Notes: generated from the sequence alone by a model not told the origin. DNA of 54,679 nucleotides from an uncultured Bdellovibrionales bacterium (GCA_964421125.1 CAYQVD010000001.1:1-54679); one strand, 5' to 3'. Shown: positions 33,862 to 40,929, counted from the first letter of the stretch. A program made the numbers and translations.

Positions 33862-33998
33862 CTAAACCAACACCAAAAGCTGACCTACTTGTTTAATAAC
33901 AATATCAACGTTCACCTCCCTATTTAACCACTTAAAAGTTCGAACTTCGTCCGCCAAACGAAGCACCTGTTTTTAAGCCTTTATTTAAAGGCTTTTTT
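33862..33998 (+). repeat. Junction repeat R2 (chimeric: long left arm, short-type middle)
   Basis: ccaaaagctgacctac...aaaagttcgaacttcgtccgccaaacgaagc...aagcctttatttaaaggctttttt. Confidence 0.9.
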
Positions 33999-34095
33999 GA
34001 TACTTGAACTGATGCTCTCCCTTAGACTTTCTTTAAATTTAAAAGCCTCAGAATTATCCAAGGCTTTTGTAGTTAACACAGAACATCAAAACAAA

Positions 34096-34410
34096 TTAAT
34101 CTTTGTCAGGAAAAGCGATCATGGCAGGATCAACCCAATACTTTTTTATTTGAATTGCCAATCCTTCACGCCCCATTCCTGCTCGATAACGTACTTCCAC
34201 CAAACACAAATTCAGGGTACGGTTATATTTCAACAAAATAATCTGTTCAAATTTTACATTCAACCGACTTGAAAGAATTGCTCTTGGCACAAAGCCTATT
34301 TCTACTCTTTTATTGATATACTTTTCAATAAAAAAATCAGAAAACGCTTCAACTGCTACAGGTTGTGACAAAAACAATATCACCGCTAGCCATAAAAAAC
34401 ATCTTTTCAT
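34096..34410 (-). CDS. Cassette 3 hypothetical secreted protein
   Basis: AGGAGG before ATG 34410; signal peptide MKRCFLWLAVILFLSQPVAVEA. Confidence 0.7.
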   Translation of the reverse strand: MKRCFLWLAVILFLSQPVAVEAFSDFFIEKYINKRVEIGFVPRAILSSRLNVKFEQIILLKYNRTLNLCLVEVRYRAGMGREGLAIQIKKYWVDPAMIAFPDKD

Positions 34411-34533
34411 TGTCTGGTCCTCCTTTGTCAAAGTTCATTTTATTAACATTACTATTGATTATCAATCGTAACACATTATTTATCACAAATCAAGCCTATG
34501 TACAAAATGCTCTAGTTATATAGACATTGCATT

Positions 34534-34670
34534 TTAGATTAAAGCCAAAAGCTGACCTACTTGTTTTATTGTAATATCAACGTTCACCTCCCTGTTTAAC
34601 CACTTGAAAGTTCGAAAACTGTCCTGCCAAGCGAGCACCTGTTTTTAAGTCCTTATTCTAGGGCTTTTTT
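34534..34670 (+). repeat. Junction repeat R3 (long type)
   Basis: Long arm, aaagttcgaaaactgtcctgccaagcgagc, hairpin aagtccttattctagggctttttt. Confidence 0.9.
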
Positions 34671-34730
34671 GATACTTTGATTACTACCCTGCATCGGACG
34701 TTAGAGCTTTTTGGAAGATTATGGTAAAAT
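34671..34730 (+). promoter_or_regulatory. 60-bp promoter module A ending in extended -10 TGgTAAAAT
   Basis: Homologous 60-mers at 36216-36275 and 39512-39571. Confidence 0.65.
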
Positions 34731-34757
34731 TATTTTATAAATTATTAAAGACAAAAA

Positions 34758-36035
34758 ATGTCTGAACAAATGCCTTCTTTCGATAATACTAAAAAAAATA
34801 AAATCGAATCAAATAACGAAAGAGAAATAGTTTTCCCTCATGCAGAAAGTATCTTGAGGTTATTTAGAGATAAATATAAAGATGAACCAGAAAAAGCAGA
34901 CATAATGGAAGATGTTCTCTATGAATTTTTTGAACAAGAAATGAAAAATATCGAAGTTTTTGAATCAGAAAAATTCGAAGCATCCTTCCCTTGGACAGTC
35001 ATAAAAACAAAAGAATTAACTAAGAAAATTGTTGAGAAATATTCAAATAAAGATGAATTGGAAGAAAAATTAAATAACTTTACAGAAAAAGATGGGGTTA
35101 AAAAACAGGAATTTATTTTCAGCTCTGGTAGCATAATGAAGAGTGGCTACCCATTTACTTTTGTCGAGGAGGCTATGCATCAAGCGATAACTTCTCTTAA
35201 AAGCAATCTTCTTGATTTACAAGAAGGAGTAGAAATAAAAGATCAAGAAATTTATACAATAGGACTACCAACCAATGAACTTGGCAAAGTCGGTCCTAAA
35301 TTTCTAGAAAAATTAAAGTCAGATCCGTTTGACGCAATGGGTGAATTACAAGCTGAATTTATTCAATCTCATCTTCCAAAAAATGAAAATGAAGCACAGA
35401 GACTAAATATAAACCTCTATGGAATTTCTACTGGAGCAAGTCTAGCCGCAGCAACTGGAGAAAAATTAATGGCAGAAGGAGTTGTGTCTCAAGATATTAA
35501 AGATAAAGATACTCCCCGTCTTTCTGTAAGAATGGATTCACCAGTTGGACTAAGCAAATCAACAGCGAAAAATTGGCAAATACCATTAGGATATGTTGCT
35601 GAATTTGTATATCAAACTTTTAAAGATCCAAAATTTCGATTGGCCGATCCAAGTTTTATGAACCAAGTTAAAAAGGCTCTGAGTGAAAGAGGAATAACAG
35701 AAAATATGACAAGTAATGATAAAAAAATAAAAACAGAGGCAATTAATTCAGTAATTGGTAAATTAAAAGAAGGTGTTGATTTTGACGAAAACCTCAAGGT
35801 CACAAAAGTCACTGGAATATTAGACCCTTTAACTTTTTCACCAACGGAATACAAAACTGAAAAGGCTCGTCAGGAAATATCAGCAGGAACTTTAGGTCAA
35901 AATATTTCCCTTAGAACCGAAAAAAATAGAAGGGAGTTTATGATAAATCAAACACATACACCTGCCTTTTTCAGAGATAGTGAGTTAAAAAAGTATTATG
36001 AAACAGCTCGTCGTATAGAAAAATTAAAAAAATAA
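34758..36035 (+). CDS. Cassette 4 protein, possible alpha/beta hydrolase
   Basis: YGISTGASLA (GxSxG), TGILDPL, QTHTP in Ser-Asp-His order; ORF is solid, function is inferred. Confidence 0.6.
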   Translation: MSEQMPSFDNTKKNKIESNNEREIVFPHAESILRLFRDKYKDEPEKADIMEDVLYEFFEQEMKNIEVFESEKFEASFPWTVIKTKELTKKIVEKYSNKDELEEKLNNFTEKDGVKKQEFIFSSGSIMKSGYPFTFVEEAMHQAITSLKSNLLDLQEGVEIKDQEIYTIGLPTNELGKVGPKFLEKLKSDPFDAMGELQAEFIQSHLPKNENEAQRLNINLYGISTGASLAAATGEKLMAEGVVSQDIKDKDTPRLSVRMDSPVGLSKSTAKNWQIPLGYVAEFVYQTFKDPKFRLADPSFMNQVKKALSERGITENMTSNDKKIKTEAINSVIGKLKEGVDFDENLKVTKVTGILDPLTFSPTEYKTEKARQEISAGTLGQNISLRTEKNRREFMINQTHTPAFFRDSELKKYYETARRIEKLKK

Positions 36036-36077
36036 ATACAAGCTACTCACATTAAGAATGAATTCGGCTTAAACTTC

Positions 36078-36215
36078 TTACATCAAGCAGCTGATCCCCC
36101 TCTTAAAATCAACCATTTTAGCTAATTCCCTATTGATTCCTACCCAGTCAAAAGTTCTGAACATGCCCGCTAGGGGGAGCAAGATGAAATTAAGCCCTTA
36201 TTCTAGGGCTTTTTT
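36078..36215 (+). repeat. Junction repeat R4 (divergent left arm)
   Basis: aaaagttctgaacatgcccgctagggggagc, then aagcccttattctagggctttttt. Confidence 0.75.
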
Positions 36216-36300
36216 GATACTTTAGTTACTACCCCAAATCGAGCGTTAGGATTTTTTGGGAGATTGTGGTAGAATTTAGATATAAGTTATAAATAAAAGA

Positions 36301-39345: not shown

Positions 39346-39511
39346 CTAAGCCAAAGCCAAAAGTTAACCTATTTGTTTAATAATAATATTTATATTTCTT
39401 CCCTATTAAACCGCTTAAAGGTTGAAAATATATTCTGCTCGCCTATCTAAATTCTTGGCGAAGCGAACCAATAAAACACAAAAAATTAAGCCCTTATTTT
39501 AGGGCTTTTTT
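39346..39511 (+). repeat. Junction repeat R7 (degenerate long type)
   Basis: ccaaagccaaaagttaacc...aaaggttgaaaa...aagcccttattttagggctttttt. Confidence 0.8.
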
Positions 39512-39598
39512 GATACTTTAATTGCTACCCCGCATCAGACGTTCGAACTTTTTAGGAAATTGTGTTACAATAAAGTTATAAAAATTAAAATTAAAAAA

Positions 39599-39883
39599 AT
39601 GATAGAAGGATCATTTGAATCAAAAAATAATGATTTAGAGACAGTAAAAAAATTTCAACAGAGCATAATCGATTACATTGAAAGCTTAGAAACAGAAAAA
39701 GATTTATTTGAAGCGGGTGCAAAAATGGGATTTGGATATGAATTTGAAGGAGATGAAAACCTAGATATAATCAAAGAGCTTAAAGAAAATATAACAAACG
39801 ATATTAAAAGAACACTTACAACTCCCGATAAATTAGCAAAGGCACTTTCTAATTTGAATCCAGAAGAAGAAGATGGACAATAA
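39599..39883 (+). CDS. Cassette 8 small acidic hypothetical protein
   Basis: ATG 39599 downstream of promoter module A. Confidence 0.65.
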   Translation: MIEGSFESKNNDLETVKKFQQSIIDYIESLETEKDLFEAGAKMGFGYEFEGDENLDIIKELKENITNDIKRTLTTPDKLAKALSNLNPEEEDGQ

Positions 39884-39913
39884 ACAATCGACCCATAATG
39901 ATCTGTTGTTTTT

Positions 39914-39985
39914 TTACACAAAAGCGGTTCGAACTTCATCCGCCAAACGGAGCTAGACATATTTTAAGGCTTAACTAAGCCTTTT
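39914..39985 (+). repeat. Junction repeat R8 (short type)
   Basis: ttacacaaaagcggttcgaacttcatccgccaaacggagcta, then aaggcttaactaagcctttt. Confidence 0.9.
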
Positions 39986-40142
39986 CATGTTATATAAGCT
40001 TGACTTATGCCATATATTTTGCTAGTTTACTTTATTAAGTTAACTGACTTAATATACTATGTTTCTTAACAAATAAAGTGTAATTTAATTTTAAATTCTA
40101 TTTTTATAAATAAACACTATTATTATTTGAAAGGATAGGATA

Positions 40143-40430
40143 ATGACACGAGAAGAGTTCGCTCGTAAAATACACTGGGCAAGAATAATCTGGTTCGTTG
40201 GAATCGTAAATCCGTTTATCATGGCTCCATAACTTTTTAAGATGTGGACGATCATGGAAACAGTCGCCTTATCATTTGGAATGTTAGGTATTATCACGTT
40301 TGTCCAGAGTGGATTCGCTTTGCACAGATTTTTTATCCGAGACAAATTCGTTTTTGTTAGTAATGTAGCAGCAGCAGCAATGTCTATTGCCACACTGGTA
40401 TCTATTCCAATAATTCAAATGATAAAGTAA
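40143..40430 (+). pseudogene. SemiSWEET/PQ-loop-like transporter with TAA at 40230-40232
   Basis: MTREEFARKIHWARIIWFVGIVNPFIMAP*LFKMW...SN; the stop sits where Q of the PQ motif is expected; three TM segments. Confidence 0.7.
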
Positions 40431-40468
40431 TTAGTTCATAAATGACCGAATAATAAGGAGGGAAGCTC

Positions 40469-40690
40469 ATGCAAGGATTATTATGTTATTACTTTATAGG
40501 ATTTGTGATTGTTTTTCCTTGGTTCTGCAAAGATGGAGGAGTGAAGGATGGCCTCATAGCATTTCTAGTGCCTACTCCTTTTTGGCCAATTTTTCTCGGA
40601 GTCCCTTTGGCCTGGCCATTCATTTTACTATTCGGATATGAAGAAATCAAAGAAGCACATATAAAACTTTTCAAAAGATTATTCCTGTGA
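40469..40690 (+). CDS. Cassette 9 small membrane protein
   Basis: AAGGAGG SD; hydrophobic with WP motifs; terminator at 40722-40759. Confidence 0.65.
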   Translation: MQGLLCYYFIGFVIVFPWFCKDGGVKDGLIAFLVPTPFWPIFLGVPLAWPFILLFGYEEIKEAHIKLFKRLFL

Positions 40691-40761
40691 TTCATGTAGA
40701 CTGAAAAATCGATTTCAGAAGAAGCCTGTTCAAGATTATAAATCTTGCAGGCTTTTTTTAT

Positions 40762-40929
40762 TTAAACCAAAGCCAAAAGCTGTCCTATTTGTTTTATAGT
40801 AATATCAACGTTCACCTCCCTATTTAACCATTTAAAAGTTCGAAAACTGTCCTGCTCGCCTCGCTGAAGCTTTAGCGAAGTGAGCCAAGCGGAGTAAACG
40901 AAATTAAGCCCTTATTTTAGGGATTTTTT
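40762..40929 (+). repeat. Junction repeat R9 (near-identical to R6)
   Basis: Direct comparison. Confidence 0.9.

What the first reader, a model, noticed from the sequence alone, without database searches (positions are those of the whole stretch)
33862..40900. Repeat left arms keep a minus-strand frame under apparent purifying selection (recombinase C-terminal tails?)
Seen on the minus strand: R2 (33966-33862) VLRLADEVRTFKWLNREVNVDIVIKQVGQLLVLV*; R3 (34638-34534) VLAWQDSFRTFKWLNREVNVDITIKQVGQLLALI*; R4 (36182-36078) LLPLAGMFRTFDWVGINRELAKMVDFKRGISCLM*. All three are 34 codons from the GGAGC position. R6/R9 read ...QDSFRTFKWLNREVNVDITIKQIGQLLALV*; R1/R5/R8 read LRLADEVR(T/I)AFV*. Among R2/R3/R6/R9 tails I count nine synonymous differences (F, K, N, T, I, G, L, V, stop) and four conservative replacements. 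The tRNA antisense in the same register reads LPGSDSNRRPID*. Inference: attP lies inside the 3' end of a recombinase gene, so each integration leaves the native tail at the distal junction. From memory, unverified, CPR large serine recombinases end in similar 'LPxxDxFRT' tails. A functional micropeptide is an alternative.
Basis: partly seen in the sequence, partly recalled or inferred. Interest (0 to 1): 0.85.

Follow-up and report, generated by a model that had tools for sequence, protein, structure and literature searches.

The report
Orphaned serine-recombinase tails beside tRNA-Asn
The short reading frames kept in the repeats downstream of a tRNA-Asn gene are the detached C-terminal ends of large serine recombinase genes, left behind where mobile elements inserted; this arrangement is already known elsewhere and is seen here in a small-genome (CPR) bacterium.

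Summary
Ten direct repeats (R1-R10, 29970-41729) follow tRNA-Asn (29053-29125). Each repeat has a left arm, a short GAGC-type block that is also the tRNA's 3' end, and a copy of the tRNA trailer and terminator. On the minus strand, R2, R3, R6 and R9 read a 34-codon frame ending in a stop. R4 reads a second tail type. R1, R5 and R8 read a 12-codon version. R7 and R10 are broken. An HMM of the tail finds it in 65 of 319 genomes of the same order, and in three of them it ends a 561-727 aa Resolvase+Recombinase ORF. Of the 30 closest such recombinases, 17 lie next to tRNA-Asn on the opposite strand and end in tRNA-antisense peptide instead; one of them ends in the same peptide as the window's tRNA antisense. 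So attP lies inside the recombinase 3' end, the crossover is at GAGC, and the repeats are attR sites. Across genomes the claimed frame has the lowest pN/pS of the six frames. Within the window, coding tail and non-coding trailer are equally conserved, so selection in place is not shown. The window holds no recombinase. Dehalococcoides ssrA islands are a close precedent, so this is a new member of a known kind.

The parts
29053..29125 (+). tRNA-Asn(gtt), the B arm of the attachment site. TTCGAA (T-loop) starts at 29105 and GGAGC is at 29121-29125.
   Evidence: ARAGORN; Rfam tRNA 70.9 bits; motif positions
29126..29161 (+). tRNA trailer plus terminator hairpin (the B' side). The same module is copied after every repeat.
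   Evidence: alignment of the tRNA region with R1-R10
29970..30044 (+). R1: short P arm (about 12 nt left of TTCGAA), GGAGC at 30004-30008, then trailer and terminator. The minus frame reads LRLADEVRTAFV*.
33862..33999 (+). R2, an attR-like repeat. The minus-strand tail frame is 33966-33862 (34 codons plus stop). The core is an indel-shifted variant (LRLADEV where R3 has LAWQDSF).
34534..34671 (+). R3, an attR-like repeat. The minus-strand tail frame is 34638-34534. Its 27-mer core matches the order-wide consensus exactly.
   Evidence: (0 mismatches)
36078..36216 (+). R4, an attR-like repeat of a second tail family (LLPLAGMFRTFDW...). The minus frame is 36182-36078.
   Evidence: (weak relatives in 7 other genomes, one at the end of a long recombinase-like ORF in G285)
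37642..37720 (+). R5, a short-arm repeat. The minus frame reads LRLADEVRIAFV*.
   Evidence: (D10)
38567..38735 (+). R6, an attR-like repeat. The minus tail frame is 38716-38567 (49 codons stop-to-stop). It contains a 30-nt in-frame insertion between the tail core and the LAW-equivalent codons.
39349..39512 (+). R7, a degraded repeat. The tail frame is broken by in-frame stops.
39914..39989 (+). R8, a short-arm repeat. The minus frame reads LRLADEVRTAFV*.
   Evidence: (D10)
40762..40930 (+). R9, a near copy of R6 (2 synonymous differences in the 93-nt tail).
   Evidence: (D2)
41566..41729 (+). R10, a degraded copy of R7 and the last repeat. Housekeeping genes follow (ABC-F ATPase at 41829-43283, then a DEAD-box helicase, a PLD-domain protein and Obg).
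   Evidence: (D3)
30093..33766 (-). Largest cassette between R1 and R2: a MacB/FtsX permease, an ABC ATPase, a HlyD-type adaptor and a small ORF.
   Evidence: Pfam
34645..34760 (+). Conserved left-end module of cassettes (terminator plus a promoter-like TGnTAnAAT), also found at 36190-36305 and 39486-39601. A second module type is at 37726-37797, 38747-38818 and 40942-41013.
   Evidence: the repeat finder families D4 and D7. The promoter reading is by eye, not by a tool.

Best explanation
The left arms of the repeats are the P arms of attR sites left by large-serine-recombinase (LSR) elements that integrate at the 3' end of tRNA-Asn. In the free element, attP lies inside the last ~100 nt of the LSR gene. 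The gene reads on the minus strand through the crossover (the GAGC block at the tRNA discriminator) into a 34-codon native tail with consensus LAWxDSFRTF(E/K)W..(D)P....(K/R)(Q/E)..LL.L.*. Integration splits the gene there. The LSR body stays next to the tRNA and now ends in a few codons of tRNA antisense. The native tail is carried to the far end of the element, where it abuts a copy of the tRNA trailer and terminator. These points are shown by sequence. The following is inferred. The window's array of ten repeats with small LSR-less cassettes built up by canonical attL x attR excisions that used alternative attR sites. An element can excise with a distal attR and pick cassettes up. After moving, it can excise with the proximal attR and drop them. 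That leaves tRNA, a foreign trailer, the cassette and an attR, with attB regenerated. The same process swaps tails between LSR lineages. It would also explain why the tails keep a coding pattern although most copies are orphans. In this genome the tails are relics: no cognate LSR was found, two copies are broken, and one has a shifted core.
For: The tail HMM matches 65 of 319 genomes of the order (98 rows). Three strong rows end ORFs of 561-727 aa that carry Resolvase and Recombinase domains, with a Zn ribbon in 2 of 3.
Of the 30 closest LSR homologues examined, 17 have tRNA-Asn(gtt) on the opposite strand within 400 nt of the stop. In 12 of these the stop lies inside the tRNA. Two have the native tail.
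G021, from the same family as the window, ends ...LLPGSDSNRRPID*, the same peptide as the window's tRNA antisense.
Homology between an LSR-attached copy and an orphan copy in G122 stops exactly after GCGAGC. G138 attL and attR share only GAGCA.
TTCGAA lies 11 nt before GAGC in the tRNA and 16 nt before it in the P arm. This is the 5-bp attB/attP offset of the DBD2 motif described for LSRs (PMC11722253, passages read).
Three LSRs with only 26% body identity share about 70% identical tails.
R1, R5 and R8 keep only about 12 nt beyond TTCGAA. The distal tail is therefore not needed as a DNA site there.
Two LSRs of the window's own genome also run into tRNA antisense. C7:8349-6601 overlaps tRNA-Trp, and C27 ends RDLNPRGL* at the contig end.
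Against: No LSR gene or LSR-body fragment is in the window (Pfam; tblastn). No LSR of the tail's type is in the 96%-complete genome. The link therefore rests on other genomes.
Full-length LSRs with the native tail are rare. They are 3 of 98 HMM rows and 2 proteins in the 5.8-billion-protein index, one of them the query itself.
The first word search with the window's own 49-aa frame found nothing.
The exact central dinucleotide and a P'/B' half-site symmetry could not be defined.
The pick-up/drop-off history is a model. No excision junction was seen; contig-level joints had sides of only 20-22 nt.
In the window, tail and non-coding trailer are equally conserved between R6 and R9, so nothing shows selection on the orphan copies themselves.
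AlphaFold2 gave the tail pLDDT 36-42, so there is no structural clue to what the tail does.
Confidence: 0.85

Rival explanations
1. The frames are free-standing micropeptide genes that are conserved because the peptide itself functions.
For: Open frames of 33-58 codons recur in many genomes. The amino-acid pattern is conserved.
Against: Conservation starts exactly at the crossover codon (L of LAW), and everything upstream is unrelated between genomes. Start codons are not conserved and no shared ribosome-binding site was seen. In the window the frame is preceded on its strand by the terminator hairpin, with in-frame stops 2-16 codons upstream. 13 of 98 HMM rows carry in-frame stops, and 7 of 32 DNA-anchored copies have a broken distal part. 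The same peptide is the C-terminus of long LSR ORFs.
Confidence: 0.03
2. The left arm is conserved only as DNA (recombinase binding or arm sites of attR), and the apparent coding pattern is incidental.
For: The 27-mer core recurs with 0-3 mismatches at 48 places in 38 of 319 genomes, against 0 for the reversed control. Several third positions in the core are invariant. R2's core keeps the DNA but shifts the frame for 5 codons. The whole of R6 and R9, including the non-coding trailer, is about 2.5% diverged against 14% for the cargo gene.
Against: Beyond the core, codons 13-33 vary most at third positions. Second positions of the L, I and V codons are nearly invariant, and pN/pS is lowest in this frame even with DNA-only ascertainment. 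A stop falls exactly at codon 34 in 16 of 32 DNA-anchored copies. R1, R5 and R8 lack the distal arm and still have the core. The frame continues into LSR bodies. The fair reading is a dual constraint: the first ~9-12 codons are both att site and coding sequence, and the rest is coding only.
Confidence: 0.07
3. The array is an integron-like platform. Circles that carry one repeat (P arm-GAGC-B') are inserted directly into the tRNA-Asn attB by an LSR acting in trans (attR-type x attB), rather than being dropped by full elements.
For: The tRNA keeps an intact trailer, so attB is regenerated. Cassettes are small (0.4-3.8 kb) and have conserved left-end modules with a terminator and a promoter-like element (D4 and D7). 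Tails recur two or more times within about 5 kb on one contig in at least 10 other genomes, for example G027, G098 and G167.
Against: No recombinase is at or near the platform. In the published LSR model, hybrid attL/attR sites are locked and do not synapse with attB (PMC11722253, passages). Canonical attL x attR excision with alternative attR sites gives the same product. No circle or junction was observed.
Confidence: 0.12

Closest known systems
Dehalococcoides ssrA-specific genomic islands with the serine recombinase DsiB (McMurdie et al. 2011, PMC3146451; passages read)
   Same: An LSR-family integrase lies on the reverse strand next to the target RNA gene. Its 3' end always overlaps attL, so its stop lies in the RNA gene or in the neighbouring island. 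The islands are tandem and bounded by repeats of the RNA gene's 3' end. 15 islands have no integrase and were read as cis-mobilisable through accretion. The authors proposed that the gene may be complete only on the circle or next to an island that supplies the 3' fragment.
   Different: The target there is tmRNA with the crossover in the T-loop; here it is tRNA-Asn with the crossover at the discriminator (GAGC). They found the overlapping C-terminus divergent and doubted a function. Here the 34-aa tail is conserved across an order and beyond, shows coding constraint, and is shared by LSRs that are 26% identical. The cassettes here are much smaller. No DsiA-like small partner was looked for.
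Myxophage Mx8 IntP/IntX and fusellovirus SSV integrases (cited in the Islander paper PMC4383910, passages read; the Tojo 1996 title was seen in its reference list; details of IntX are recalled)
   Same: attP lies inside the integrase gene, so integration changes (Mx8) or splits (SSV) the integrase C-terminus. Both target tRNA genes.
   Different: Those are tyrosine recombinases; this one is a large serine recombinase.
Tycheposons of Prochlorococcus (preprint 10.1101/2020.12.28.424599; passages read)
   Same: Elements lie next to tRNA genes, in tandem, separated by partial tRNA copies. Degenerate remnants and further partial tRNAs are found deeper in the island. Many carry primase or replication genes, as the 13.6-kb G122 element does. 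A minority (27 of 937) use an LSR.
   Different: Most are tyrosine-recombinase elements. No recombinase tail across attP is described in the passages read.
Accretion and cis-mobilisable elements (ICESt1 family; Pavlovic 2004, seen only as a citation in PMC3146451)
   Same: Integrase-less units flanked by att sites accumulate in tandem and can move with a neighbouring element.
   Different: That system uses a tyrosine recombinase with identical core repeats. Here the sites are P/B-type hybrid LSR sites, which limits which pairs can react.
Integron cassette arrays
   Same: A row of small, mostly single-gene cassettes, each ending in a repeat, next to a fixed insertion point.
   Different: There is no IntI tyrosine recombinase. 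The repeats are not attC hairpins but half of an LSR attP plus the tRNA trailer. The cassettes carry their own promoters and lie in either orientation.

Membership tests
Large serine recombinase (the ORFs that carry the tail in other genomes; none is in the window) | N-terminal resolvase catalytic domain | tested here: met
   PF00239 at E 3e-19, 4e-18 and 6e-26 in the G122, G140 and G135 ORFs. PF00239 is also precomputed for P0002.
Large serine recombinase | Recombinase domain (DBD1) and zinc-ribbon domain (DBD2) | tested here: met
   PF07508 in 3 of 3 and PF13408 in 2 of 3; G135 has no Zn-ribbon hit at E<=0.001.
Large serine recombinase | Coiled-coil inserted in DBD2 | tested here: inconclusive
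   The AlphaFold2 model of the G122 protein has long helices at 355-402 and 408-434 after the zinc-ribbon strands. No comparison with a solved LSR was made.
Large serine recombinase | Catalyses attP x attB recombination | not testable with these tools
   Needs an assay.
LSR attachment sites (attP/attB/attL/attR logic) | The outer (DBD2) motif lies about 5 bp closer to the centre in the B-type than in the P-type half-site | tested here: met
   TTCGAA is followed by 11 nt then GAGC in tRNA-Asn of the window and of G138. It is followed by 16 nt then GAGC in the P arms. The rule is taken from PMC11722253. That TTCGAA is the DBD2 motif is inferred.
LSR attachment sites | Hybrid junctions: attL = B-centre-P' and attR = P-centre-B', with a very short shared core | tested here: met
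   G138 attL and attR share only GAGCA. The two G122 copies diverge right after GCGAGC. LSR proteins switch from the shared ...LL to AWRDSF... or to tRNA antisense at the same codon.
LSR attachment sites | A defined central dinucleotide and an imperfect inverted repeat of the two half-sites | tested here: inconclusive
   No convincing mirror of TTCGAA was seen by eye on the P' or B' side. The dinucleotide cannot be fixed from sequence.
Tandem tDNA islands / cis-mobilisable elements | Units without an integrase, bounded by att repeats, in tandem next to the target RNA gene | tested here: met
   Ten repeats with no recombinase between 29126 and 41729.
Tandem tDNA islands / cis-mobilisable elements | Mobilisation with a neighbouring element | not testable with these tools
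   Only contigs were available, and the joints had sides of 20-22 nt.
Integron | IntI-type tyrosine recombinase next to attI, and attC hairpin repeats | tested here: not met
   No recombinase is among the 20 ORFs of 29-47 kb scanned with Pfam. The genome's six tyrosine recombinases lie on other contigs. The repeats are a tRNA-3'-end/LSR-tail composite; attC folding was not tested.
Free-standing small protein gene | Conserved start codon and translation signals, and a frame maintained in all copies | tested here: not met
   Starts are not conserved. Stops occur in 13 of 98 rows. R7 and R10 are broken.

The most novel reading that the evidence does not exclude
The attR tails form a shared pool of exchangeable C-termini for tRNA-Asn-targeting serine recombinases across this CPR class. 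The recombinase would carry its native 34-aa tail only on the excised circle or behind a neighbour's attR, and a short tRNA-encoded tail when integrated, so the tail would report integration state and bias the enzyme between integration and excision. Alternate use of attR sites would both swap tails between unrelated LSR lineages and deposit promoter-bearing mini-cassettes, giving these small genomes an integron-like gene-capture site run by a serine recombinase.
Probability: 0.3. Interest if true: 0.65.

Novelty: new member of a known kind. Interest (0 to 1): 0.45.

Why it matters
Three reasons.

- It explains a puzzling conserved frame as a by-product of a known design, attP inside the integrase gene. 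It also gives a sequence-level attB/attP/attL/attR set for a family of large serine recombinases that target tRNA-Asn in CPR bacteria, a group whose mobile elements are little described. The Islander paper of 2014 still stated that serine integrases were not known to target tRNA genes (PMC4383910).
- The tail is conserved, under coding constraint, and shared by recombinases only 26% identical. That makes the old suggestion from Dehalococcoides testable, namely that such an enzyme is complete only on the circle.
- Arrays of small LSR-less cassettes behind tRNA-Asn recur in at least 10 other genomes of the order. They may be a main route of gene gain in these reduced genomes.

Defined LSR/att pairs are also of practical use as integration tools.

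Tried and rejected
- A word-index search with the window's own 49-aa R6 frame against longer proteins found nothing. The tool itself calls this weak evidence.
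I then used the tail region of the full G122 protein.
- Viral contigs searched with the G122 LSR gave 14 pattern matches, none confirmed. Whether the elements are phages therefore stays open. The G122 element carries a primase-type zinc finger, a nuclease, a radical-SAM protein and others, and none of the 10 ORFs scanned had a Pfam capsid or terminase hit.
- Public runs: two metagenome runs hold the stretch, but only as contigs. One contig covers 33915-38600 without differences. The listed joints have sides of 20-22 nt, below the tool's own reliability mark. This gives no evidence for or against excision.
- The AlphaFold2 model of the G122 LSR (16-row alignment) has mean pLDDT 77 but 36-42 over the tail, with a terminal helix at 549-562. 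No fold search was run because the tail is not modelled with confidence.
- A mirror-image TTCGAA motif on the P' or B' side was looked for by eye and not found.
- A SemiSWEET-like reading of the interrupted ORF at 40143-40427 was recalled only and got no Pfam support.
- Integron and micropeptide readings were rejected; see the rival explanations and the membership tests.
- Supplements of the papers cited were not opened. Figure 1B and the additional files of PMC3146451 may hold tail alignments that bear on how new the conserved tail is.

Full report
WHAT IS THERE.
The window is contig C1 of a 1.09-Mb, 32% G+C genome in 35 contigs. A relative in the same order carries the record label Candidatus Moraniibacteriota, which is CPR. 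tRNA-Asn(gtt) lies at 29053-29125. It is followed by ten direct repeats, R1-R10, up to about 41729. After the last repeat come housekeeping genes: an ABC-F ATPase, a DEAD-box helicase, a PLD-domain protein (probably cardiolipin synthase, my reading) and Obg.

Each repeat ends with a GAGC-type block, which in the tRNA is the last acceptor bases plus the discriminator. A copy of the tRNA trailer and terminator hairpin follows. To the left of GAGC every repeat has TTCGAA, 16 nt away. In the tRNA the T-loop TTCGAA is 11 nt away.

- R2, R3, R6, R7, R9 and R10 extend about 100 nt further left.
- R4 extends as far, with a different sequence.
- R1, R5 and R8 extend only about 12 nt beyond TTCGAA.

Between the repeats lie 0.4-3.8 kb cassettes. 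They hold a MacB/ABC/HlyD exporter set and ORFs without Pfam families, and they lie on either strand. No recombinase is present, and tblastn finds no fragment of a recombinase body.

THE OBSERVATION.
So were the nine synonymous differences among R2, R3, R6 and R9. R7 and R10 have in-frame stops. R2's core is an indel-shifted version of R3's, so the DNA is kept but five codons change. R6 and R9 carry a 30-nt in-frame insertion.

WHAT IT IS.
The 30-aa tail finds relatives in 13 of 61 related genomes (12 besides the window's own genome). An HMM of nine tails (A1) finds 98 rows in 65 of 319 genomes of the order, in 9 of the 12 families listed. In a sample of the class it finds 45 of 401 genomes.

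Most rows are short open frames, and 13 of 98 contain stops. Three strong rows are the C-terminal end of long ORFs: G122 (570 aa), G140 (561 aa) and G135 (727 aa frame, stop lost). These ORFs have Resolvase and Recombinase domains, and two of the three have the zinc ribbon. A fourth example, P0002 (525 aa), came from the protein index. The R4-type tail has weak relatives in seven other genomes. One of them is at the end of a long ORF in G285 that resembles the G135 recombinase.

The reverse view was tested by searching the order with the G122 recombinase. Its match usually stops at residue ~543-546, at the crossover codon. The 30 best loci break down as follows:

- 17 have tRNA-Asn(gtt) on the opposite strand within 400 nt of the stop. 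The stop is inside the tRNA in 12, abuts it in 1, and lies about 100-220 nt away in 4.
- 2 have the native tail.
- 1 is next to tRNA-Asp and 1 next to tRNA-Trp.
- 9 have no tRNA called within 400 nt. Six of these still end in DSN- or LLRR-type peptides.

G021, of the window's own family, ends ...LLPGSDSNRRPID*. This is identical to the antisense peptide of the window's tRNA-Asn. In the window's own genome, two other LSRs also run into tRNA antisense: C7 overlaps tRNA-Trp, and C27 does so at its contig end.

WHERE THE CROSSOVER IS.
In G122 an LSR-attached copy and an orphan copy 13.6 kb away are alike through the P arm and diverge right after GCGAGC. In G138 attL and attR share only GAGCA. At the protein level, bodies ending ...SP.(L/M)L continue either with AWRDSFRTF... 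or with tRNA antisense. The exchange is therefore at the GAGC block, and the tRNA stays whole. The 11-nt against 16-nt spacing of TTCGAA equals the 5-bp shift of the DBD2 motif between attB and attP half-sites described for LSRs (PMC11722253, passages). The repeats are thus P-centre-B' sites, that is attR.

CODING OR DNA SITE.
Both constraints apply. The 27-mer core recurs with at most 3 mismatches at 48 places in 38 of 319 genomes, with no hit for the reversed control. Some third codon positions in it never vary. That fits a recombinase half-site.

Beyond the core the pattern is that of a protein. In 34 of 41 collected tails the diversity by codon position is 0.35/0.26/0.48. pN/pS is 0.47 in the claimed frame against 0.77-1.28 in the other five. 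That set was found by protein similarity, so I repeated the count on 32 tails taken from the 30 loci returned by the DNA-pattern search, using only codons 13-33. The claimed frame again has the lowest pN/pS: 0.70 with all 32, and 0.58 without 7 visibly broken ones. pS is near saturation (0.72), so these ratios understate the constraint.

Inside the window the picture differs. R6 and R9 differ by 2.2% in the tail, 2.4-2.8% in the insertion and the non-coding trailer, 10% in the leader and 14% in the cargo gene. The broken R7 and R10 differ by 4.8%. The whole repeat is kept or homogenised, not the peptide. Selection on the orphan copies in place is therefore not shown.

TAIL EXCHANGE.
The recombinases of G122, G135 and P0002 are 26% identical to one another over their bodies, yet their tails are about 70% identical. 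The tail goes with the attachment site, not with the enzyme lineage.

HOW THE ARRAY FORMED (INFERRED).
Only attP x attB and attL x attR reactions are needed. An integrated element that excises with a distal attR carries the cassettes in between, together with the foreign trailer copies. After integrating elsewhere it can excise with the proximal attR. That leaves tRNA, foreign trailer, cassette and attR, with attB regenerated. This accounts for four observations:

- the trailer/terminator copies after every repeat;
- the conserved left-end modules of the cassettes (families D4 and D7);
- the intact trailer after the tRNA;
- the exchange of tails.

Each excision that is to yield a working element must use an attR whose tail still works. 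This would keep a coding pattern in a population of mostly orphan copies. In this genome no cognate recombinase was found, and the copies look like relics.

COMPARISON WITH WHAT IS KNOWN.
The closest case in print is the Dehalococcoides ssrA islands (PMC3146451). There a serine recombinase always overlaps attL at its 3' end, the islands are tandem, and 15 integrase-less islands were read as cis-mobilisable. The authors suggested the gene may be complete only on the circle. Mx8 and SSV are the tyrosine-recombinase precedents for an integrase that extends across attP (PMC4383910). Tycheposons show the same tandem and remnant picture next to tRNAs.

Three features are new here: the host group and target (CPR, tRNA-Asn, crossover at the discriminator); a tail that is conserved, constrained and shared among distant LSRs; and the very small cassettes. 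My literature searches turned up no description of this family. That is not proof that none exists.

VERDICT.
It is a new member of a known kind, of moderate interest.

Noticed in passing
window 38661-38690 and 40856-40885 (R6, R9); related insertion in R7 and R10; genome contig C3:65592-65617: R6 and R9 carry a 30-nt in-frame insertion inside the tail core. 26 nt of it are identical to an intergenic stretch on contig C3, on the opposite strand. What this short shared element is remains unknown.
   Followed up: partly
L105 (G140) and L061 (G122), about 60-75 nt inside the recombinase 3' end; own genome C7 recombinase: A GGTTCGAACC-type palindrome (T-loop-like) recurs inside the recombinase gene upstream of the crossover. 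It reads as (R/S/A)FEP in most enzymes but as VRT(A/S) in a different frame in others (L073, L089, L090). This suggests DNA-level conservation, perhaps a further binding site or an older captured tRNA piece.
   Followed up: no
genome contig C7:6601-8349 (-) with tRNA-Trp 6560-6631 (+); contig C27:5441-6949: Two other large serine recombinases of the same genome also end in tRNA antisense (…GWRESNSR* over tRNA-Trp; …RDLNPRGL* at a contig end). The design is therefore used for several tRNA targets in this organism.
   Followed up: partly
window 38555-39522 versus 40750-41739: The unit R6 - 141-aa ORF - R7 is repeated as R9 - 141-aa ORF - R10. The repeats are 95-100% alike but the ORF only 86%. 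This points to either two insertions of related cassettes or a duplication followed by homogenisation of the repeats.
   Followed up: partly
window 34645-34760, 36190-36305, 39486-39601; and 37726-37797, 38747-38818, 40942-41013: There are two families of conserved cassette left ends, directly after the repeat's terminator. Each has an extended -10-like TGnTAnAAT or a TTTACA...TGnGATATT element, as if every cassette brings its own promoter. This was read by eye only.
   Followed up: no
window 40143-40427 (+): A 95-codon frame for a small hydrophobic protein is interrupted by a single in-frame TAA at codon 30. It has no Pfam family when read through with X. It is probably a cassette gene that has been inactivated.
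   Followed up: partly
L067, L084, L086 (G259, G281, G293): Three close recombinase homologues end …(K)LQ(A/G)(G/Q)LKEL(A/V)K(I/E)K* about 215 nt before tRNA-Asn rather than inside it. This is a third kind of ending, and its junction was not examined.
   Followed up: no
L018 (G046), L020 (G027), L061 copy b (G122), just right of the attR terminator: A shared GTAACC..GGATGG..TTCGAAC-like stretch follows the terminator in three genomes of different families. It could be a further tRNA-like remnant or a convergent tRNA gene at the original site.
   Followed up: no
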